DNA of 12,554 bases. Origin: a virus. The notes beneath the pieces were generated by a model. It did no database searches. It worked only from the letters and a program-made list of their open reading frames with translations, and had not been told where the DNA came from. Location: UHGV virus genome UHGV-0141061; one strand, given 5' to 3'. The position numbers and the translations under genes were made by a program. This document shows, piece by piece, positions 1 through 12,554 of the stretch (positions are counted from its first letter, which is position 1; each line of letters starts with the position of its first letter).

Positions 1-48
1 TCTACACAGAGTAGATCGTCGGCAGCGTCAGATGTGTATAAGAGACAG
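1..48 (+). other. Illumina Nextera adapter (P5 tail CTACAC, i5 index AGAGTAGA, TCGTCGGCAGCGTC, Tn5 mosaic end AGATGTGTATAAGAGACAG); technical, not biological
   Basis: Read directly: 1-7 tctacac, 8-15 agagtaga, 16-29 tcgtcggcagcgtc, 30-48 agatgtgtataagagacag; its reverse complement is at 12508-12554. Confidence 0.9.
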
Positions 49-567
49 GCATATGGGTACGCATCATTCCTTTTTGGTATGGCTATATGTTTATGCGGAT
101 CATATAAGAATAAGGTTATTGGATATGCAATTCTTATTGCATCACTTTACTTGGCTGGATTTAAATATAATCATTATCTTTACGCATGGTTAAAAGAATT
201 TTCATTATCTATTAACAGCATTGAGAAAATAAATTTATACTTGCTTTTCAATCTATTATCTGGAATTGGAGTGGTATATTCCCTATGTAAGATTGGGGTT
301 ATGTCATGGTTTTCTGAATCAAAAATCATGGTCTTTTTAGGAAAGTTATCATTCTCGGCATACTTAATTCAAATGCCTGTATTTTATTGCTTATCAGGGC
401 CAGTTTATCATGAATCAAGGAAAATCATGAGCGACTCCAGCGCATGTTTATCAGCTGTTTTAATATCAGTGGTGATGCTTTATGCATGTTCTTACATCTT
501 TTATTTGCTCATCGACAGAAAAAGCATCGAGGTTTCCCATAGATTTGCCGCGATCTTTTCAAAGTAA
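49..567 (+). CDS. Acyltransferase family 3 (Oac/OafA-like O-antigen acetyltransferase), C-terminal fragment; 5' end cut by the contig/adapter boundary
   Basis: Frame is open from the adapter junction to TAA 565-567; very hydrophobic multi-pass sequence with an FLGKLSFSAYLIQMPVFY-type segment typical of the C-terminal part of family-3 acyltransferases; AT-rich; sits next to a tailspike as in Sf6-type phages. The track's start at 34 lies inside the adapter. Confidence 0.55.
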   Translation, partial: AYGYASFLFGMAICLCGSYKNKVIGYAILIASLYLAGFKYNHYLYAWLKEFSLSINSIEKINLYLLFNLLSGIGVVYSLCKIGVMSWFSESKIMVFLGKLSFSAYLIQMPVFYCLSGPVYHESRKIMSDSSACLSAVLISVVMLYACSYIFYLLIDRKSIEVSHRFAAIFSK

Positions 568-574
568 AATTAGA

Positions 575-596
575 AGCCATGCGTTAGCGCATGGCT
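575..596. terminator. Candidate bidirectional terminator hairpin between convergent genes
   Basis: Perfect 9-bp inverted repeat AGCCATGCG / CGCATGGCT with a 4-nt loop, between stop codons at 565-567 (+) and 603-605 (-); flanks only moderately T-rich. Confidence 0.4.
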
Positions 597-602
597 TGAC
601 CT

Positions 603-1667
603 TTAGTAAGAGATAGGTATTTCTCCTGTAGAGAAGTTGCCTGCTGCACCTTCCCTGCTGCATAAAGCGAACTTCTTATCAACCACATCCCTTGAGTCTG
701 TAGCAATAATTTCATGGCAAATATTATTTGCAGATCTGTGCACGAATGTATTTACAACAGGCTTACTGGACGATGTTCCTTTGGCCCTCGTTCCGTCTAT
801 AAGGCAATCAGACACCGACATAAGTCCTGAAACTAGGTTATTGCTTGAATCCCAATCTATCAACGACTTATCAAAATACACGCTTCCTAACATATAGGTT
901 GTCCCTCCGGAGTAACCAACAAACCTGCGCAGCACTCCACCTTCCAGCCTAATATAGCTGCGAGACATTCCAGACGTAAAGTTCATGAAAGTTATGTCCA
1001 TATTGCTCTCAAGACCATAAAGGCATGATGCATACTCATTCAGGTATCCAATATAAGCTAAAACCTTACAACCAATTGATTTCGCAGGTGTCAGTTTGAC
1101 TATTGATATTTCTCTGGAAGTTGAATCATGGTAAGAGATGGCCCACTCAAATCTTGCATTTTTACCATTAAAGGTGCTTCCGGAGAAATCTATAACGCCA
1201 GGCATAATGAAATCACGAATAATGCTATTTTGTGTCTTAAAATTATTTTTAAATGAAACAATGTTAAGTGTGACTGCGTCAGGCCAGTAGATATTTGTAG
1301 ATATAATTACATTTTTTGGCAGATTTAATGCTCTTGGCTGAACAGGGCTACCAGTGGAAACAACATTATCACACCTGCATGTGAAGAGATCTACAAGCCC
1401 AGTTTTGTCCGATGATATTCTTACCGAACCCCCTTTGACAATAAAATCCCCCTTATGCTCTCCATAGTCAGTGCGAATCCCAAAGGGACCAATATCTGAG
1501 TTTATAATCTGCGTTGATTCATCAAAAGCGCCAGTACCAAAAGCCGCGCCATTAATTATCCTGCAATTGTCTATCAAAACCTTAGACGATCCATAATGAA
1601 GATTGAAGCTATCAACAGTGCAATCTCTTACCACAGTGTCACGGCTATAATTACCATCAATAGAACG
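603..1667 (-). CDS. Tailspike, distal (receptor-binding, beta-helix-like) portion; same frame as 1668-2849 but separated from it by TGA at 1668-1670
   Basis: Track ORF 603-1634 starts at GTG; the frame is open upstream to the TGA (linking codons RSIDGNYSRDTV); Gly/Ser/Asn/Thr-rich beta-strand-like sequence; AT-rich. Confidence 0.55.
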   Translation of the reverse strand, partial: RSIDGNYSRDTVVRDCTVDSFNLHYGSSKVLIDNCRIINGAAFGTGAFDESTQIINSDIGPFGIRTDYGEHKGDFIVKGGSVRISSDKTGLVDLFTCRCDNVVSTGSPVQPRALNLPKNVIISTNIYWPDAVTLNIVSFKNNFKTQNSIIRDFIMPGVIDFSGSTFNGKNARFEWAISYHDSTSREISIVKLTPAKSIGCKVLAYIGYLNEYASCLYGLESNMDITFMNFTSGMSRSYIRLEGGVLRRFVGYSGGTTYMLGSVYFDKSLIDWDSSNNLVSGLMSVSDCLIDGTRAKGTSSSKPVVNTFVHRSANNICHEIIATDSRDVVDKKFALCSREGAAGNFSTGEIPISY

Positions 1668-2849
1668 TCACCCTTTCCCAACAACAGTGCTAAAAAAAGA
1701 ATGCTTCAGAGTAAACTCTAGAGTCAATGTGTAGCGAGATTCAGAATCAGGTTGTGTCATCCCCGATGAGCACAAATACCAATTAACACCGTATGTATTA
1801 CTACTACCAAAAATTGCAGAGTTGATGGGTATTACGCCTAAGGTATTATCATAATTAACCCTTACATCAACCATAGACCTTTTGATATCAACAGCCGTGC
1901 CAGTAAACGTCCCTGATAACTTAGGCAATACAATGACAGTCCTTCGCACAGGCAGCTTATATAAAGTACAGATAAGTGAAGAGTTGTATGTATTCTTAAA
2001 TGTATACGCTAAATCACTTCCTTTGGTTAGTAGGTTAACTTCACCTTTGTATTTTGGCGTGAAAGTGCTGCCAAGCAATCGGTACAAGTCAATTTCAGTA
2101 CCAGACATCTTAACTAAGGAATTATCCCATCCAGTGGTTGACTCTGTAAATGTTAGCGCGGAAGTTAGCTCGTTTAATGGATATGCTGATGGTGTAAAAT
2201 CTTTAATGTATGTAGATGCGTCTCTCTCATCAGCATAAACAATCTTACCGCCAGCCAGGTTGAACGTGCAATTGCTGAGATCAAAATCTCCGTATAACGT
2301 TGTCTCTTTGTCGATAGTGAAAGTCAGTGGCATAGTTGAGTAGATTTTCACTGGAGTTCCTTTAAACTCAGCAAAAACAGAATTCAACTGATCGCTATTT
2401 CTTTCACCATCAGCAGCAGCTATATCGTATACAGAAAGCCTGACCTCTAACCCCCCTATTATTTTGTAACCGTCTGGCGAACTAATTTCATCCATGAACC
2501 TTTGCTCAAACTGGTCAGGGTCATACTTCAGCACATTCGGAAAATAGAACTGCTGAGAACCGTACGCATCGTATACAGCCATAGAATGGCCTTGCACAGT
2601 TACGAATTTGGCAATCTGTCCGTTATATACAGGATACCCGCCAGCGTTAATGATGATTGGCTGTGCAACAGGAACGTGAGAACCGTCTTCGTTTTCCACA
2701 TAAACCTGAATCTGGTTTTCAGGATTTACCGGGTCAGTGCCAATTTTACCGATATAAATTTTGCCATTGGCTACGGCTTTAAAAGAACGAGCCATAGTGA
2801 AGAGTTGCGAAGGCATGCTTACCACAACATTTGCGGTGATATCTGACAT
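1668..2849 (-). CDS. P22-type tailspike, N-terminal part including the head-binding domain; ends at an in-frame TGA
   Basis: From ATG 2847-2849 (GGAG 7 nt upstream): [78 protein letters not shown], which closely parallels the P22 gp9 head-binding domain as I recall it. The track's start at 2897 is an upstream in-frame extension. Confidence 0.8.
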
Positions 2850-2937: not shown

Positions 2938-3231
2938 ATGCCATTCCACCCAACTGGTGAGGCATCAAGGATGTACAGCAAATACGACGAGGCGCAGTTT
3001 CACTTGAGACTTCCGCATGAACTTCACGCGAAAATTAAACAGCGTGCGAAGATGAATAACAGGTCGCTGAACTCAGAGATAATTGCAGCGATTGAAGAAT
3101 CATTGACTAAACAAAGCTCTGCATCAGTTTACATTGACGATGCAGAGCGTATGGCAGAACAACAATCCGATATGGTAAAGAAAATTGTCTTTGATACGCT
3201 CAAAGAGCTATATAAAAAAGACAGCAGCTAA
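2938..3231 (+). CDS. mnt: Mnt-like ribbon-helix-helix repressor
   Basis: FHLRLPHELHAKIKQRAKMNNRSLNSEIIAAIEESL...DAERMAEQQSDMVKKIVFDTLKELYKK parallels P22 Mnt (FNFRMPMEVREKLKFRAEANGRSMNSELLQIVQDAL...DAERLADEQSELVKKMVFDTLKDLYKK, recalled). An alternative start is ATG 2971. Confidence 0.8.
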   Translation: MPFHPTGEASRMYSKYDEAQFHLRLPHELHAKIKQRAKMNNRSLNSEIIAAIEESLTKQSSASVYIDDAERMAEQQSDMVKKIVFDTLKELYKKDSS

Positions 3232-3238
3232 CTATCAG

Positions 3239-3742
3239 TTACGGAGGATTCCCGATAGGGGGTAAGGGGGTATTTGTATTTATTGTCTTTTGTATATTGT
3301 CTTTTGTGTTTGACTGATTCGGTAAATTGCTTTTTACCGATTTGGTGAAGGTTTGTTTTACCGAATTGGTAAATGTTTTACCGAATCCGTTAACTTTCGT
3401 TTTCCACTCGGAAATGTTTGTATTCATACCAACTTGACGCCCCACCTGAATGAGAACTCCCATTCTGATAAGCTCGTTTTTGGCGGTAGAGCATTTGGTT
3501 GGTGCCATGCCAGTGAGTTCAGCGAACTGTTCGTTTCCGATCCAATCTATTTTTTTGTTGTAACCGTATGTCTTGCGCCACACAGCCATAACAATCAGTA
3601 ACTGATGTAGAGTAAGTCCAGAAAGCATGGCGGCTTCTAACAGTGTGTTTGCAGTCCGAGTGTAGCCATCTTCGAGTTCTGCCACGCGATGCTCCACGAC
3701 CTCCAGTTGAGGCCTGTAATCAGCTAACTTAACGACGCCCAT
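3239..3742 (-). CDS. Replication initiator O-like protein, N-terminal (iteron-binding) domain only; C-terminal domain absent
   Basis: DGYTRTANTLLEA..LTLHQLLIVMAVWRKTYGYNKKIDWIGNEQFAELTGMAPTKCSTAKNELIRMGVLIQ..NISEW parallels the lambda O N-terminal domain (recalled). AGGAG lies upstream of ATG 3740-3742. The ORF ends at TAA 3239-3241 just after the iteron and A+T-rich segment, where lambda O continues for about 130 more codons. Confidence 0.7.
   Translation of the reverse strand: MGVVKLADYRPQLEVVEHRVAELEDGYTRTANTLLEAAMLSGLTLHQLLIVMAVWRKTYGYNKKIDWIGNEQFAELTGMAPTKCSTAKNELIRMGVLIQVGRQVGMNTNISEWKTKVNGFGKTFTNSVKQTFTKSVKSNLPNQSNTKDNIQKTINTNTPLPPIGNPP
3318..3393. repeat. ori-like iteron array inside the O-like gene
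   Basis: Three direct 18-bp repeats TTTTACCGA(T/A)TTGGT(G/A)AA at 3332-3349 and 3356-3373 and TTTTACCGAATCCGTTAA at 3376-3393, plus an inverted partial copy ATTCGGTAAA at 3318-3327; an A+T-rich segment follows at about 3270-3317, arranged as in lambda ori. Confidence 0.5.
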
Positions 3743-4581: not shown

Positions 4582-5371
<790 letters not shown>

Positions 5372-5783: not shown

Positions 5784-6162
5784 ATGACAAACCGAGGCAG
5801 AGTTCCTCATACGCACTTTTCTATGCTTAATGAACTGACGTTTAACTTGGTTGCGCCACTTGAACAGGCCGGATATACGCTGCCAGAAAAAATGGTCCCT
5901 GATATTTCAGAGGGTAGGGTTTTCTCGCAATGGCTCCGTGACAACCGGGGGGTTGAGCCGAAGACATTCCCAACATATAACCATGAGTACCCAGATGGCC
6001 GGACATTCCCGGTACGTCTATACCCAAACGAATATTGCAGATTTCAAACAATACTTCAACGAAGTGTGGCTGCCTCAGTACGCTCCTAAATATTTTGCTG
6101 AACGAGACCAAAGGGCATTGACGTTGATTGAGAAAATCATGCTACCTGACCTTGATTCCTAA
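5784..6162 (+). pseudogene. Hypothetical protein with a broken reading frame (+1 shift between two overlapping ORFs 5784-6089 and 5851-6162)
   Basis: Frame 1 ...FPTYNHEYPDGRTFPVRLYPNEY and frame 2 ...NIADFKQYFNEVWLPQYAPKYFAERDQRALTLIEKIMLPDLDS both look protein-like and switch near 6020-6040; frame 1 is also in frame with the upstream KilA-N ORF across TAA 5742-5744; weak ribosome-binding site. Confidence 0.4.
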
Positions 6163-6170
6163 ATGTTATT

Positions 6171-6196
6171 CCCGGCCACAGAGCCGGGTTTTCTTT
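6171..6196 (+). terminator. Intrinsic terminator ending the cI operon
   Basis: CCCGGC-cacaga-GCCGGG stem-loop followed by TTTTCTTT, 8 nt after the stop at 6160-6162. Confidence 0.7.
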
Positions 6197-6348
6197 GCCT
6201 CACGATCCCCCTCACCCAAGAACACATAACCAATTGTATCTATTTGAAAATAAATAGATACAACTCACTAAACATAGCAGTTCAGATCTCTCACCTACCA
6301 AACAATGCACCACTGCAAAAAATAAATTCATATAAAAAACATACAGAT

Positions 6349-6410
6349 AACCATCTGCGGTGATGAATTATCTCTAGCGGTGTTGACATAAATACCACTG
6401 GCGGTGATAC
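6349..6410 (+). promoter_or_regulatory. Lambda-type left operator OL3 (6349-6365), OL2 (6369-6385), OL1 (6393-6409) with PL (-35 TTGACA 6382-6387, -10 GATACT 6405-6410)
   Basis: aaccatctgcggtgatg, tatctctagcggtgttg, taccactggcggtgata and the PL hexamers read directly; near-identical to lambda OL/PL. Confidence 0.9.
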
Positions 6411-6479
6411 TAAACACATCAGCAGGACGCACTACTCACCAGGGCGGTGAATATACAACGATTCAAATATGAATCTACG

Positions 6480-6494
6480 GCGCTGACAAAGCGC
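6480..6494 (+). promoter_or_regulatory. nutL-like boxB hairpin GCGCTGACAAAGCGC (P22 type)
   Basis: Perfect 5-bp stem with GACAA loop about 65 nt downstream of PL; matches the P22 boxB-left sequence as I recall it; no clear boxA upstream. Confidence 0.5.
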
Positions 6495-6557
6495 AATAAC
6501 CAAAGTGAACTTTGGGGTGAATGCAGAAGCTAACCTTCTCGGCGGAGGCGCTTTGCA

Positions 6558-6758
6558 ATGATTACGCTAAGCGAAATGCTTCGCTCATATAAACCAGATG
6601 AACACACTAAGGACGCTATCGACTGGCTGGAAGATGATGACTGTAACTATCAGGAAAAAGCCGCTGAATGGTTCTGGGATGCAATAACCGAAAGAGTTAA
6701 GGCTGAATATGCCTTCGCAATATTCAAACGCAGACACATTTTTGGAGAAGCTGCATGA
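6558..6758 (+). CDS. Small acidic hypothetical protein (66 aa), first gene of the PL operon
   Basis: GGAGG 9 nt upstream of ATG 6558; stop overlaps the next start (ATGA at 6755-6758), implying translational coupling; no homolog recognised. Confidence 0.5.
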   Translation: MITLSEMLRSYKPDEHTKDAIDWLEDDDCNYQEKAAEWFWDAITERVKAEYAFAIFKRRHIFGEAA

Positions 6759-7090
6759 GCAATATCGTTGAATTCGTTAAACAGCAGGAGCAGTTATTCT
6801 GCGGAGCATTGACTGAACAGACGGTGACATGGGCTAAGGAAAGCCAGTTTGCAATTCAGTATTTCCAGAAAAACGATTACCTGGCTAAAACAGCACTGGC
6901 AAATCCAACCAGCGCACAGAACGCCATCATCAATGTTGCGGCGATCGGCATCACCTTAAACCCGGCCAGCAAACTGGCTTATCTGGTTCCTCGCGACGGC
7001 ATGGTGTGCCTTGATATCAGTTACATGGGATTACTTCATCTTGCGCAATCGACAGGATCAATTAAGTGGGGGCAATGCAAACTGGTGTAA
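6755..7090 (+). CDS. RecT/Red-beta-family recombinase, N-terminal fragment (truncated)
   Basis: ..NAIINVAAIGITLNPASKLAYLVPRDGMVCLDISYMGLLHLAQSTGSI.. follows the conserved RecT core pattern (E. coli RecT ..IVQCSQLGLEPGSALGHAYLLPFG..IIGYRGMIDLARRSGQI.., recalled) but stops at 111 aa where full-length proteins have about 270. Confidence 0.5.
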   Translation: MSNIVEFVKQQEQLFCGALTEQTVTWAKESQFAIQYFQKNDYLAKTALANPTSAQNAIINVAAIGITLNPASKLAYLVPRDGMVCLDISYMGLLHLAQSTGSIKWGQCKLV

Positions 7091-8274: not shown

Positions 8275-8466
8275 ATGACCGATACCAGCCTGATTCCTGA
8301 GAAAGAAGTGATGAACAAGCTCGGTGTTTCATCACGTCAGACAATCTGGAACTATACCAAACGGCACGGATTTCCGAAGCCAGTCAGAACCCACCCCAAA
8401 TCATACCTTCGTGAAGCTGTTGAAGGGTGGATTCTTAACGGTGGCGTTAATCAGAAATGCTCCTGA
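8275..8466 (+). CDS. AlpA/Xis-family DNA-binding protein (excisionase or regulator)
   Basis: GGAGA upstream of ATG 8275; ..MNKLGVSSRQTIWNYTKRHGFPKPVRT..YLREAVEGWI is the AlpA-type winged-helix pattern; lies beside the integrase; its 3' end overlaps the integrase 3' end by 20 bp. Confidence 0.8.
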   Translation: MTDTSLIPEKEVMNKLGVSSRQTIWNYTKRHGFPKPVRTHPKSYLREAVEGWILNGGVNQKCS

Positions 8467-8920
8467 TGTGCCAGAACAATTTATCAGCGTGAAGCTCATA
8501 CGCTTTGCGCTGAGCCTCTATCCAATCGAGTTTATTGTATACGGACATTATCCCGCCAAGTTCATGACCGAGCATTCGCTCAGTAACATGAGGCTCGACA
8601 TTCATCTCGGACAGCCGTGTAACAAGCGTTCTTCTGAAATCATGTGTTCGCCAGTAACCTAGGTCCATCCCTCCCCTTATTCTATTTACGAATCGGTTGG
8701 CTGCAGCGATGCTGATCGGTTTGTTTATGTCTTCTCCAGGGAAAAGAACATCATTGTACGTTGTCATGGCCTTTTCGAGGAAAGGCTTAATTTGTTCGAA
8801 GATTGGACGGCGGATAACATTACCCATCTTGCTATGCTCTTTCGGTACGGTCCATACGTTGTCCAGCAGGTCAAATTCTGTCTTTATTGCCAGCCTAAGT
8901 TCTGAGAGCCTCGCCCCCAC
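8447..8920 (-). pseudogene. Tyrosine integrase (P4 type), C-terminal catalytic fragment
   Basis: ..GARLSELRLAIKTEFDLLDNVWTVP..HDFRRT..LGHELGGIMSVYNKLDW.. shows the catalytic R/H-x-x-R/Y region; its frame differs from the central fragment at a C5 run (8914-8918). Confidence 0.8.
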
Positions 8921-9136
8921 AGCATAAGCATCTGATGAAGTAGCTTATTTGACGTAGACGCACGGCTTCTTTCAATAGCAAGCCAAATCTTAGCCAGTTC
9001 GTGATACGACAGTACCCGATCCCCTACCTCAGCGCGGGAGCCGAAGTCCCTTGGTTGGATGCTCATAATTGCGCAACTATCTATCAACTGACGCCGCATG
9101 CACCAACTAATTGCTGATCTTAGTTGACTTAGCACC
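8884..9136 (-). pseudogene. Tyrosine integrase, central fragment between the IS insertion and the frameshift
   Basis: In frame with the N-terminal fragment once the IS and one target duplication are removed (1341 bp, a multiple of 3); ends at a stop 8884-8886 created by the frameshift. Confidence 0.6.
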
Positions 9137-9200
9137 TGATGTAGCCCCCTGAAACACCAGACAGTAGCTGTATCTCCAGATAAGAGATAGGCTTGAATAT

Positions 9201-9596
9201 ATGTCTAACACTAACACCAATATTGAGATGACCGGGATCCTGTTAGGGCAAGAAGTCCGTAAACGTAAAACTCCTCAGGAGAAGATCGCCATTATCCAGC
9301 AGACGATGGAGCCGGGTATGAATGTCTCCCATGTCGCCCGCCTGCATGGTATCCAGCCCAGCCTGCTGTTTAAGTGGAAGAAGCAATATCAGGAAGGCAG
9401 CCTCACCGCCGTTGCGGCTGGAGAGGAAGTCGTTCCTGCTTCTGAGCTTACTGCTGCTCTGAAGCAGGTCCGGGAGCTTCAGCGCCTTCTGGGCAAGAAG
9501 ACGATAGAAGTTGAGATCCTAAAAGAAGCCGTGGAGTACGGTCAGTCGCGAAAATGGATAGCGCACGCGCCCTTGTTGCCAAAGGACGGGGAATAG
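9201..9596 (+). CDS. IS3-family transposase OrfA (helix-turn-helix and leucine zipper)
   Basis: ..[78 protein letters not shown].. resembles IS2 OrfA. Confidence 0.85.
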
Positions 9597-10435
9597 CCAT
9601 GGTCAGCCGGACCATGGGCGTGTCGCGTGCGCAACTGTCACTGCGGATTAACCGTTCTGCCGACTGGCAGGACAGGCGCTGTAACCGGCGTAATGAAGAA
9701 GCAGACGCAGAAATACTGTCGGCTATCCTCAACATTATCAGCGATATGCCGAGTTATGGTTATCGACGCGTGTGGGGCATCCTGCGCAAGCAACGTCGCA
9801 CAGAGGGACAGCCACCTGTGAATGCCAAACGGCTTTACAGGATAATGAGCGAGCATAACCTGTTGTTGTTGCATCACAAACCAGAGCGACCGAAGCGTGA
9901 ACATAAGGGCAAGATAGCGGTGGCAGAAAGCGATATGCGCTGGTGTTCAGATGGCTTCGAGTTCGGCTGCGACAACGGCGAAAAACTGCGGGTAACGTTC
10001 GCGCTGGACTGCTGCGACCGTGAGGCCATAGACTGGGCAGCAAGCACGGGAGGCTATGACAGTTCGACCGTGCAGGATGTGATGCTGAGGTCGGTGGAAA
10101 AGCGCTTCGGCGACAGGCTGCCGGAAACACCAGTGCAGTGGCTGACGGACAACGGTTCAGCATATACCGCGCATGAAACGCGGAGGTTCGCCAAAGAGCT
10201 GAATCTGGAGCCATGTACAACAGCGGTGAGCAGCCCGCAGAGCAATGGCATGGCCGAACGGTTCGTGAAGACGATGAAGGAAGACTATATCGCGTTCATG
10301 CCGAAACCGGATGTGAGAACAGCCCTGCGGAACCTTGCAGCGGCGTTCACGCATTACAATGAAAATCACCCGCATAGTGCGCTGGGATATCACTCTCCGA
10401 GAGAATACCGGCGGCAGCGGGCATCGTTAACTTAA
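9554..10435 (+). CDS. IS3-family transposase OrfB (DDE catalytic domain), in the -1 frame relative to OrfA
   Basis: ..[92 protein letters not shown].. is a DDE integrase-core pattern resembling IS2 OrfB; overlaps orfA by 43 nt. Confidence 0.85.
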
Positions 10436-10472
10436 GATACAAAAGCTGTCCGGAAATGGCGGGTCAAGATCA

Positions 10473-10965
10473 GCACCTGCCTTGCTCGGCGTGGATTATC
10501 TTTTTCTTCTTCGGTAAGCAGGTCAACCCATTGCTTAACCGTGATAGAAGATGCCGGACGATTAGGGAAGGCGTCATGCATGCGCTTCATAACCGTTGAT
10601 CGGTAAAGTGCCTGGGTCTTTTCTCTGAGAGTTGTAGAGACGTAGTTGTCGAACCAGTAGTCGAGACACTGGGCGACCGTCATGGAGTTCTCCACCTTCT
10701 CTTCAAAATAGGTGCGTGGATCCGTTCCTGAGAAATAGAGCTTCCGCAAGTCAGCAGTGATCTGTCTGGCATCCTTCAAAGACAGGGATGGGTATCGACC
10801 AAGCCCAAGTCGTTTAGGCTTGCCATACCAGCGATAGCGGTACTGGAACTGGATGACCCCCTTCGGTGAAATTCGTACGCTGAGGCCATCGGCATCAGCC
10901 ACTTCTTGTGGGCCCGAATATGGTTTACCATAAATAGTACGCAGTTTTGTGTCGCTTATAGCCAT
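10473..10965 (-). pseudogene. Tyrosine integrase (P4 type), N-terminal fragment upstream of the IS insertion
   Basis: MAISDTKLRTIYGKPYSGPQEVADADGLSVRISPKGVIQFQYRYRWYGKPKRLGLGRYPSLSLKDAR is the characteristic N-terminal arm-binding domain of P4-type integrases; the track ORF continues 13 codons into the IS before stopping. Confidence 0.8.
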
Positions 10966-11146: not shown

Positions 11147-12507
11147 ATGACAGACACAGATAAACAACCTACCTTCCTCTTTCACGATTACGAAACCTTT
11201 GGCACGCACCCCGCGTTAGATCGCCCTGCACAGTTCGCAGCCATTCGCACCGATAGCGAATTCAATGTCATCGGCGAACCCGAAGTCTTTTACTGCAAGC
11301 CCGCTGATGACTATTTACCCCAGCCAGGAGCCGTATTAATTACCGGTATTACCCCGCAGGAAGCACGGGCGAAAGGAGAAAACGAAGCCGCGTTTGCCGC
11401 CCGTATTCACTCGCTTTTTACCGTACCGAAGACCTGTATTCTGGGCTACAACAATGTGCGTTTCGACGACGAAGTCACACGCAACGTTTTTTATCGTAAT
11501 TTCTACGATCCTTACGCCTGGAGCTGGCAGCATGATAACTCGCGCTGGGATTTGCTGGATGTTATGCGTGCCTGTTATGCCCTGCGCCCGGAAGGAATAA
11601 ACTGGCCTGAAAATGATGACGGTCTACCGAGCTTTCGCCTTGAGCATTTAACCAAAGCGAATGGAATTGAACATAGCAACGCCCACGATGCGATGGCTGA
11701 TGTGTACGCCACTATTGCGATGGCGAAACTGGTAAAAACGCGTCAGCCACGTCTGTTTGATTATCTCTTTACCCATCGTAATAAACACAAACTGATGGCG
11801 TTGATTGATGTTCCGCAGATGAAACCCCTGGTTCACGTTTCCGGAATGTTTGGGGCATGGCGCGGCAATACCAGCTGGGTGGCACCGCTGGCGTGGCATC
11901 CAGAAAATCGCAATGCCGTAATTATGGTGGATTTGGCAGGAGACATTTCGCCATTACTGGAACTGGATAGCGACACATTGCGCGAGCGTTTATATACTGC
12001 AAAAGCCGATCTTGGCGATAACGCCGCCGTTCCGGTTAAGCTGGTGCATATCAATAAATGTCCGGTGCTGGCCCAGGCGAATACGCTACGCCCGGAAGAT
12101 GCCGACCGACTGGGAATTAATCGTCAGCATTGCCTCGATAACCTGAAAATTCTGCGTGAAAATCCGCAAGTGCGTGAAAAAGTGGTGGCGATATTCGCGG
12201 AAGCCGAACCGTTTACGCCTACAGATAACGTGGATGCACAGCTTTATAACGGCTTTTTCAGTGACGCAGATCGTGCAGCAATGAAAATTGTGCTGGAAAC
12301 CGAGCCACGTAATTTACCGGCACTGGATATCACTTTTGTTGATAAACGGATTGAAAAGCTGTTGTTCAATTATCGGGCACGCAACTTCCCGGGGACGCTG
12401 GATTATGCCGAGCAGCAACGCTGGCTGGAGCACCGCCGCCAGGTATTCACGCCAGAGTTTTTGCAGGGTTATGCTGATGAATTGCAGATGCTGGTACAAC
12501 AATATGC
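11147..12507 (+). CDS. sbcB: Exodeoxyribonuclease I (SbcB), 3' end truncated by the contig/adapter boundary
   Basis: By-eye translation with no stops: MTDTDKQPTFLFHDYETFGTHPALDRPAQFAAIRTDSEFNVIGEPEVFYCKPADDYLPQPGAVLITGITPQEA...EFLQGYADELQMLVQQYA matches E. coli SbcB except in the first 12 or so residues. Absent from the ORF track, presumably because it has no stop before the window end. Confidence 0.9.
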
Positions 12508-12554
12508 CTGTCTCTTATACACATCTGACGCTGCCGACGATCTACTCTGTGTAG
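12508..12554 (-). other. Illumina Nextera adapter, reverse complement of 2-48; technical
   Basis: ctgtctcttatacacatct gacgctgccgacga tctactct gtgtag read directly. Confidence 0.9.

What the first reader, a model, noticed from the sequence alone, without database searches (positions are those of the whole stretch)
1635..1670. Single in-frame TGA splits a roughly 747-codon tailspike into a head-binding N-terminal part and a receptor-binding C-terminal part
ORFs 1668-2849 and 603-1667 are in the same frame with no other stop; the only interruption is TGA at 1668-1670. This could be a nonsense mutation (pseudogene), a base-call error, or a low-level readthrough site. If real, the lysogen would make a 393-aa N-terminal fragment that retains the virion-attachment domain but lacks most of the receptor-binding body, which could act as a poison subunit for related phages. 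That last idea is speculation.
Basis: seen in the sequence. Interest (0 to 1): 0.5.

Follow-up and report, generated by a model that had tools for sequence, protein, structure and literature searches.

The report
Nonsense-mutated tailspike in decayed prophage
The stop codon is real and is a single G-to-A change (Trp TGG to TGA) that kills the tailspike gene of an already gutted, non-viable P22-like prophage remnant in a gut E. coli, which is ordinary prophage decay.

Summary
Window 603-2849 (- strand) is one 748-codon frame broken only by TGA at 1668-1670. The codon was TGG (Trp). Near-identical intact 748-aa alleles in other E. coli carry TGG at this exact position, and the Trp is invariant in 22 homologs down to 42% identity. 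No homolog has the two halves as separate genes. The break does not fall at the boundary between the head-binding and receptor-binding domains (about residue 115-125). It lies in the middle of the predicted parallel beta-helix. The gene sits in a roughly 12-kb prophage remnant between sbcB and dacD. A deletion (junction at 3250|3251) has removed every head, tail, lysis and most replication genes. The integrase carries both an IS insertion and a frameshift. The best explanation is a recent nonsense mutation in a dead prophage, that is, a pseudogene. A base-call error is unlikely, because three assemblies give the same TGA, but these may derive from the same reads. Background UGA readthrough by tRNA-Trp would regenerate a few percent of wild-type protein by accident. 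Nothing suggests it is programmed. The poison-subunit idea has no support. Interest is low.

The parts
1668..1670 (-). In-frame TGA at codon 394 of the tailspike gene. It derives from TGG (Trp) by a G-to-A transition at window position 1668 on the coding strand. The next base is C (UGA-C).
   Evidence: One search gives the translation. One search shows L006, L007 and L012 with GGG TGG CGT where the window, L008 and L013 have GGG TGA CGT. One search shows four phage homologs with W at this column. One search shows W394 invariant in 22 homologs.
1671..2849 (-). 5' part of the tailspike pseudogene, encoding a 393-aa product. It comprises the P22-type head-binding domain (aa 1-113), a linker, and the first ~270 residues of the beta-helix body. 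A GGAG Shine-Dalgarno sequence sits 8 nt upstream of the ATG at 2849.
   Evidence: PF09008, E = 2.5e-66, residues 1-113. Sf6 gp14 and P22 gp9 N-terminal domains, E down to 5e-64. Searches show the sequence; this exact 393-aa product is on record.
603..1667 (-). 3' part of the tailspike pseudogene: 354 codons downstream of the TGA in the same frame, ending at TAA 603-605. It encodes the C-terminal half of the beta-helix and the C-terminal domain. Gene callers annotate it as a 343-aa ORF from the GTG at 1634.
574..597 (-). Terminator-like hairpin (10-bp stem, then a T-rich tail) just after the tailspike stop codon.
   Evidence: a consensus scan only.
2971..3231 (+). Intact Mnt/Arc-family repressor gene (86 aa), transcribed divergently from the tailspike gene as in the intact relatives.
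   Evidence: PF03869 and PF11423; an 86-aa gene is called in L006, L007 and L008.
3250..3251 (.). Deletion junction. Sequence just 3' of mnt is fused to the middle of the O-like replication gene. Helicase, nin genes, Q, lysis genes and all head, tail and ejection genes are missing.
   Evidence: window 49-3250 matches L006/L007, window 3251 onward matches the replication gene of L005, and there is no shared sequence at the joint; none of 5426 complete E. coli genomes spans the junction.
3239..3742 (-). Truncated O-like replication gene (167 aa against 273 aa in the L005 relative). It contains four iteron-like repeats at 3307-3394.
   Evidence: PF04492; the match to L005 RepO is lost after residue 161 of 273, at window 3251; the repeats.
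8450..10965 (-). Integrase pseudogene, interrupted by an IS3-family insertion sequence (about 9139-10471) and also frameshifted near 8915.
   Evidence: three tblastn pieces in two frames; rve and HTH_Tnp_1 genes; the IS ends.
49..567 (+). 3' part of the O-antigen-type acyltransferase gene (Acyl_transf_3), cut by the contig end. It is intact (382 aa) in the longer assembly L008.

Best explanation
A single G-to-A transition converted the invariant Trp-394 codon (TGG) of a P22-type tailspike gene into TGA. The gene lies in a defective prophage remnant at the sbcB-dacD locus of an E. coli strain assembled from a metagenome. The remnant had already lost, or at some point also lost, all virion, lysis and most replication genes through a deletion that I estimate at roughly 25-30 kb. 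Its integrase is destroyed by an IS insertion plus a frameshift. The tailspike therefore has nothing to attach to and is under no purifying selection, so the stop is ordinary pseudogenisation. If the gene is transcribed at all, translation ends at codon 393. The product would be a head-binding domain attached to less than half of a parallel beta-helix, lacking the C-terminal half. I infer that this fragment is non-functional and probably unstable. Shown here: the ancestral codon, the continuity of all homologs, the mid-fold position of the stop in a moderate-confidence model, the deletion, and the integrase lesions. Inferred: the absence of selection, the fate of the fragment, and the order of the events.
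For: One search shows a single in-frame TGA. Searches show intact 748-aa alleles inside complete P22-like prophages (L006, L007) with TGG at this site. These differ from the window by only 7 nt in 2247: 4 synonymous changes, A339V, I486V and W394*. One search shows that the intact protein's 50-member cluster includes at least ten listed 748-aa E. coli proteins. Searches show Trp at this column in all four phage homologs and in all 22 aligned homologs (42-79% identity), and every homolog is a single continuous gene. Searches give an AF2 model (pLDDT 74) that matches P22/Sf6 tailspikes and beta-helix depolymerases (K64-ORF41, TMq 0.53), with W394 opening strand 394-400 in mid-helix. Searches show that the remnant lies between sbcB and dacD, that the junction is at 3250|3251, and that the late genes are absent. 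One search shows the integrase split by the IS and frameshifted. One search shows a RecT fragment and a truncated O-like gene. Searches show the same TGA and the same remnant, 100% identical over 12460 nt, in a second assembly (46-kb scaffold, ERZ28649434) and the same TGA in a Logan contig (SRR4305497). The window's contig header gives k-mer coverage of about 12.
Against: The reads were not inspected. The three assemblies that show TGA may all derive from one sample or one read set, so they exclude an assembler artefact but give no independent biological confirmation. No expression data exist. The order of the deletion and the nonsense mutation is unknown, so the stop could have arisen while the phage was still viable. 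The mnt repressor and (in L008) the acyltransferase gene flanking the tailspike are intact, so the region is not uniformly decayed.
Confidence: 0.9

Rival explanations
1. Leaky stop. Near-cognate Trp-tRNA(Trp) reads UGA at a low rate, so a few percent of ribosomes would insert exactly the ancestral Trp and make full-length wild-type tailspike. The gene would then be hypomorphic rather than dead.
For: PMC10570021 reports about 2% UGA readthrough at 37 C and about 4% at 25 C in E. coli K-12 reporters, through competition between Trp-tRNA(Trp) and RF2. The ancestral residue is Trp, so readthrough would restore the native sequence. The base after the stop is C. From my own recollection of fourth-base context studies, UGA-C is among the weaker termination contexts in E. 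coli. That point was not checked here.
Against: This is a generic property of any UGA and not evidence of a programmed site. The TGA is absent from all other alleles examined. No stimulatory element was looked for or seen. There is no virion for the protein to join. From my own knowledge, K-12 has an unusually weak RF2 allele, so natural isolates probably read through less.
Confidence: 0.3
2. Sequencing or consensus error. The true base at 1668 is G (TGG) and the gene is intact.
For: The contig is a raw metagenome SPAdes contig with untrimmed Nextera adapters at both ends and only about 12x k-mer coverage. The assemblies that share TGA may use the same reads.
Against: Three different assembly pipelines give the same base. 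Illumina substitution errors rarely dominate a consensus at about 12x (my own assessment). The rest of the contig shows no sign of error, since sbcB is open over 454 aa at 98.7% identity. The window differs from the intact alleles at nine other positions in 3202 nt, which is consistent with a genuinely distinct lineage.
Confidence: 0.04
3. Domesticated decoy or poison subunit. The 393-aa fragment is retained because its head-binding domain occupies tailspike sites on superinfecting P22-like phages and lowers their infectivity.
For: The fragment keeps a complete head-binding domain. That domain folds on its own and docks on the tail hub in solved structures (1LKT, 7SG7 and 8TVR). The SD sequence and start codon are intact. 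The flanking mnt and acyltransferase genes are intact.
Against: The allele was found in one lineage only, while all other listed full-length cluster members are intact. It differs from intact alleles by just 7 nt, so there has been no time for selection to act. The stop lies in mid-beta-helix rather than at a domain boundary, which favours misfolding. The late promoter and antiterminator that normally drive tailspike expression are deleted. The neighbouring genes show random decay.
Confidence: 0.03
4. Selected loss of function. A tailspike endoglycosidase expressed from a remnant could trim the host's own O-antigen, so inactivating it would be beneficial rather than neutral.
For: In Salmonella ST313, deleting the BTP1 prophage tailspike restored the O-antigen length of a gtrC mutant (PMC4413052 abstract). 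This shows that prophage tailspikes can act on the lysogen's own LPS. Here the tailspike is paired with an O-antigen-type acyltransferase.
Against: There is no evidence that this tailspike is expressed, or that its substrate is the host's O-antigen. In BTP1 the effect was studied in a strain carrying the BTP1 prophage, whereas here no particles can form. A single occurrence cannot separate selection from drift.
Confidence: 0.1

Closest known systems
P22 gp9 / Sf6 gp14 / HK620 gp9 tailspikes (Lederbergvirus-type podophage tailspikes)
   Same: The N-terminal head-binding domain is a clear member of this group: PF09008 with E = 2.5e-66, 85% identity to the Sf6 gp14 N-terminal domain in the Foldseek alignment, and a hit to the 1LKT domain. 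The gene position is also the same, after the ejection-protein genes and mnt and before an O-antigen-modifying gene at the prophage end. The predicted body is a parallel beta-helix.
   Different: The receptor-binding body has no sequence relative in the PDB and no Pfam family. Its relatives are uncharacterised tailspikes of myo-, podo- and kuraviruses: ECO1230-10 at 68%, P433.1 at 59%, Paul at 55% and Proteus PM16 at 41%. This copy is interrupted by a stop.
Defective (cryptic) lambdoid/P22-like prophage remnants of E. coli
   Same: The element shows a large internal deletion, an IS insertion, a frameshift and a nonsense mutation, yet it keeps the repressor (cI-like, 237 aa), cro, cII and a lysogenic-conversion-type acyltransferase.
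   Different: Nothing differs in kind. This particular deletion junction is not found in any of 5426 complete E. coli genomes.
Programmed stop-codon readthrough in phage structural genes (for example the Q-beta A1 coat extension at a UGA). This is recalled from my own knowledge and was not tested here.
   Same: A UGA that tRNA-Trp can read at a low level.
   Different: In programmed cases the stop is conserved and both products are needed. Here the stop is absent from every relative examined and replaces an invariant Trp in the middle of a fold.

Membership tests
P22-type tailspike (head-binding domain family PF09008) | N-terminal head-binding domain matching PF09008 above the gathering score | tested here: met
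   221.4 bits against a cut-off of 24, residues 1-113 covering the full profile; hits to Sf6 gp14, P22 gp9 and the 1LKT domain.
P22-type tailspike (head-binding domain family PF09008) | A single polypeptide joining the head-binding domain to a beta-helix receptor-binding/depolymerase body | tested here: met
   The ancestral allele meets this. P0001 and other cluster members are single 748-aa proteins. The AF2 model matches full-length P22/Sf6 tailspikes and beta-helix depolymerases. The window copy itself is interrupted by the stop.
P22-type tailspike (head-binding domain family PF09008) | Encoded within a P22-like late gene cluster (coat, gp4, gp10, gp26, ejection proteins) | tested here: not met
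   L006 and L007 meet this. The window does not. Its late genes are deleted and the gene abuts a truncated replication gene.
P22-type tailspike (head-binding domain family PF09008) | Trimeric assembly and O-antigen endoglycosidase or deacetylase activity | not testable with these tools
   Only a monomer model of moderate confidence is available. No catalytic residues were assigned.
Pseudogene by nonsense mutation | Orthologous intact alleles carry a sense codon at the position of the stop | tested here: met
   TGG in L006, L007 and L012. W invariant in 22 homologs.
Pseudogene by nonsense mutation | The stop is a property of the DNA and not an assembly or sequencing artefact | tested here: inconclusive
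   Three assemblies agree, but the independence of their reads is unknown and no pileup is available.
Programmed translational readthrough | The stop codon is conserved among relatives, with coding constraint downstream | tested here: not met
   The stop occurs only in this lineage. All other alleles examined have TGG.

The most novel reading that the evidence does not exclude
The 393-aa fragment (a complete head-binding domain plus a partial beta-helix) is expressed from the remnant, for example by read-through transcription from PR across the deletion junction when the cI-like repressor is inactivated. It would then act as a dominant-negative decoy that caps the tail hubs of superinfecting P22-like phages. 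That would be a prophage-remnant-encoded assembly poison.
Probability: 0.03. Interest if true: 0.55.

Novelty: already known. Interest (0 to 1): 0.08.

Why it matters
It matters little beyond correct annotation. The two ORFs (393 aa and 343 aa) should be annotated as one tailspike pseudogene in a defective prophage, not as two genes. Both fragments are already in protein databases as separate entries, which can mislead clustering. The intact allele belongs to an uncharacterised beta-helix tailspike body that is shared across unrelated phage types (P22-like, Jilinvirus, Vectrevirus, Kuravirus, Proteus Novosibovirus). This is a modest example of horizontal exchange of receptor-binding modules and is unrelated to the stop codon.

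Tried and rejected
1. Separate genes. I tested whether the two halves are normally separate genes. This is rejected, because every homolog from 41% to about 100% identity is continuous.

2. Low-quality sequence. I suspected this when no sbcB ORF was listed at the right end of the window. It is rejected. sbcB simply runs off the contig and is open over 454 aa. The odd terminal ORFs come from Nextera adapter sequence.

3. Exact-match scan. A scan of genome contigs for the 50-nt site with N at the third codon base found nothing. The representative-genome set lacks this allele.

4. E. coli and phage DNA searches. Megablast against complete E. coli genomes and against phages matched only the head-binding domain portion. 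The receptor-binding body is absent from 5426 complete E. coli genomes at megablast ('near') sensitivity.

5. DRR859738 (L012). It first looked like an independent TGA carrier because the same 343-aa ORF was called there. Inspection showed TGG, and the contig merely starts nearby.

6. P0138 (L014). I asked whether this 395-aa protein ending in ...GKGW indicates a natural module boundary. The contig continues with TGA plus unrelated sequence and then ends. This is probably a mobile-element insertion. It does not match the IS in the window, and I did not pursue it further.

7. Chimeric junction. I considered whether the 3250|3251 junction is an assembly chimera. This is unlikely. There is no shared sequence at the joint, the same joint appears in a 46-kb scaffold, and the remnant is flanked correctly by sbcB and dacD.

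Full report
**Observation**

On the - strand, window 603-2849 translates as 749 codons with one internal stop. That stop is TGA at codon 394 (window 1668-1670), and the terminal TAA is at 603-605. The mechanical ORF list shows the two in-frame pieces. The real start is the ATG at 2849. It is preceded by GGAG and gives the P22-family N-terminus [10 protein letters not shown].

**What the codon was**

A tblastn search with the receptor-binding part found continuous tailspike genes in four phage lineages:
- Escherichia phage ECO1230-10, 68% identity
- Escherichia phage P433.1, 59%
- Escherichia phage Paul, 55%
- Proteus phage PM16, 41%

In the alignment all four have Trp at the stop column, within the motif G-x-G-W-R-x-x-D-G-N-Y.

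The large protein search, run with the sequence in which W replaces the stop, returned a 748-aa E. coli protein at about 100% identity (P0001). Its 90% cluster has 50 members, and at least ten of the listed ones are full-length 748-aa proteins.

Two genomes carrying P0001 (L006 and L007) have GGG TGG CGT where the window has GGG TGA CGT. Over the 2247-nt gene they differ from the window at only 7 positions: 4 synonymous changes, A339V, I486V and W394*.

In a 22-sequence alignment spanning 42-79% identity, W394 is an invariant column. The stop is therefore a TGG-to-TGA transition. No relative has the two halves as separate genes.

**Where the break lies in the protein**

Pfam recognises only the head-binding domain, at residues 1-113 (PF09008, 221 bits). 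PDB sequence hits are limited to that domain in the Sf6 and P22 tailspikes.

An AlphaFold2 model of the intact protein has mean pLDDT 74 and pTM 0.71. From about residue 165 onward it is almost entirely beta-strand. Foldseek matches it to full-length P22 and Sf6 tailspikes and to beta-helix capsule depolymerases such as Klebsiella K64-ORF41 (TMq 0.53).

W394 opens strand 394-400 in the middle of this body. The truncated product would be a head-binding domain plus less than half of the beta-helix.

**Context**

The window is ENA contig ERZ652521 NODE_127_length_12554_cov_12.15. Untrimmed Nextera i5 adapter sits at both ends.

A second assembly, the 46-kb scaffold_37 of ERZ28649434 (L008), is 100% identical to the window over 12460 nt. 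It extends the picture on both sides. The whole prophage-derived segment is about 12 kb and lies between sbcB and dacD-sbmC-yeeA.

In the orientation of tailspike transcription, L008 reads as follows:
- sbcB
- an integrase interrupted by an IS3-family element
- early-left genes, including a 111-aa RecT fragment and a KilA-N protein
- a cI-like repressor (237 aa), cro and cII
- an O-like replication gene truncated to 167 aa
- mnt (on the opposite strand)
- the tailspike (393 aa + 343 aa as called)
- an acyltransferase (382 aa, on the opposite strand)
- dacD

Window 49-3250 matches the mnt-tailspike-acyltransferase end of the intact prophages L006 and L007 at 99.69%. From 3251 onward the window matches the replication gene of another sbcB-site prophage, L005. 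There is no shared sequence at the joint. None of 5426 complete E. coli genomes spans it, although each half is common on its own.

Everything an intact relative carries between the replication gene and mnt is therefore missing. That includes the helicase, nin genes, Q, lysis genes, terminase, portal, scaffold, coat, gp4/10/26 and the ejection proteins (compare).

The integrase aligns to its intact homolog in three pieces: aa 1-165, aa 159-237 and aa 237-392. The IS lies between the first two pieces and a frame change lies between the last two. In contrast, sbcB is open across all 454 codons present in the contig, so the sequence is not generally error-ridden.

**Interpretation**

The simplest reading is that the TGA is one more lesion in a dead prophage. 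The tailspike has no virion to join, so the stop is neutral and the gene is a pseudogene. The low divergence from intact alleles (7 nt in 2247) shows that the event is recent.

The same TGA occurs in three assemblies: the SPAdes contig, the 46-kb scaffold and a Logan contig from SRR4305497. This rules out an assembler artefact. However, I could not establish that these come from different samples, and I could not inspect reads. A consensus error therefore remains a small residual possibility.

A contig from DRR859738 first looked like a further carrier. It actually has TGG and simply begins nearby.

**Readthrough**

E. coli K-12 reporters show about 2% UGA readthrough at 37 C and about 4% at 25 C, through competition between Trp-tRNA(Trp) and RF2 (PMC10570021). 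The lost residue is Trp, so such readthrough would regenerate the exact wild-type protein.

This is an incidental consequence of the type of mutation. It is not evidence for a programmed site, because the stop is absent from every relative examined and replaces an invariant residue.

**Poison subunit and selected loss**

The head-binding domain is complete, and solved structures show that it docks on the tail hub as an independent domain (entries). The decoy idea is therefore physically conceivable.

Several observations argue against it:
- The allele was found in one lineage only.
- The break is in mid-fold.
- The regulatory genes that normally drive late expression are deleted.
- Neighbouring genes show random decay.

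A different idea is that loss of an O-antigen-cleaving enzyme could be beneficial. It has a precedent in Salmonella BTP1, where deleting the prophage tailspike restored the O-antigen length of a gtrC mutant (PMC4413052). It is untested here.

**Verdict**

This is a real, well-explained and ordinary feature: a TGG-to-TGA nonsense mutation in the tailspike gene of a degraded P22-like prophage remnant. Interest is low. The only useful consequence is for annotation, which should record one pseudogene rather than two genes.

Noticed in passing
window 1-48 and 12507-12554: Both contig ends are untrimmed Illumina Nextera i5 adapter in inverted orientation (…TCTACAC AGAGTAGA TCGTCGGCAGCGTC AGATGTGTATAAGAGACAG). 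The listed start of ORF 34-567 and the tail of ORF 12288-12554 are artefacts of this adapter sequence.
   Followed up: yes
window 3250|3251: Deletion junction that fuses sequence just 3' of mnt to the middle of the O-like replication gene and removes all late genes. There is no microhomology at the joint, and no complete E. coli genome among 5426 spans it.
   Followed up: yes
window 8450-10965: The integrase is disrupted twice: by an IS3-family element (about 9139-10471; orfA 9201-9596, orfB 9554-10435) and by a frameshift near 8915.
   Followed up: partly
window 3307-3394: Four roughly 17-nt palindromic iteron-like repeats (TTTACCGAATTGGTAAA and variants) lie inside the truncated O-like gene, followed by an A-rich stretch. 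This looks like a lambdoid replication origin cut just beyond the iterons by the deletion.
   Followed up: partly
L014 9180-9213 (Logan SRR25248545, 48.5-kb contig): A different P22-like prophage (with arc and ant) carries the same tailspike family, truncated immediately after the same Trp codon: GGG TGG TGA CCTGCCCCCACGATTAGATACAACA, then the contig ends. This is probably a mobile-element insertion at the adjacent position. It is unrelated to the IS in the window.
   Followed up: partly
window 603-2849 versus L001-L004: The beta-helix body of this tailspike is shared at 41-68% identity with tailspikes of unrelated phage types (Jilinvirus ECO1230-10, Vectrevirus P433.1, Kuravirus Paul, Proteus Novosibovirus PM16). 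Each is fused to a different N-terminal adaptor. The body has no Pfam family and no solved structure.
   Followed up: partly
window 6755-7090 and 5784-6560: There is a 111-aa RecT fragment and, per the gene table for the identical contig, a weak BstA_C fragment. This indicates further deletions in the early-left operon of the remnant.
   Followed up: no
window 4658-5371, 2971-3231 and L008 12283-13431: The cI-like S24 repressor (237 aa), Mnt (86 aa) and the Acyl_transf_3 O-antigen-type acyltransferase (382 aa in L008) are intact despite the decay around them. This is the usual pattern of retained immunity and conversion genes.
   Followed up: no
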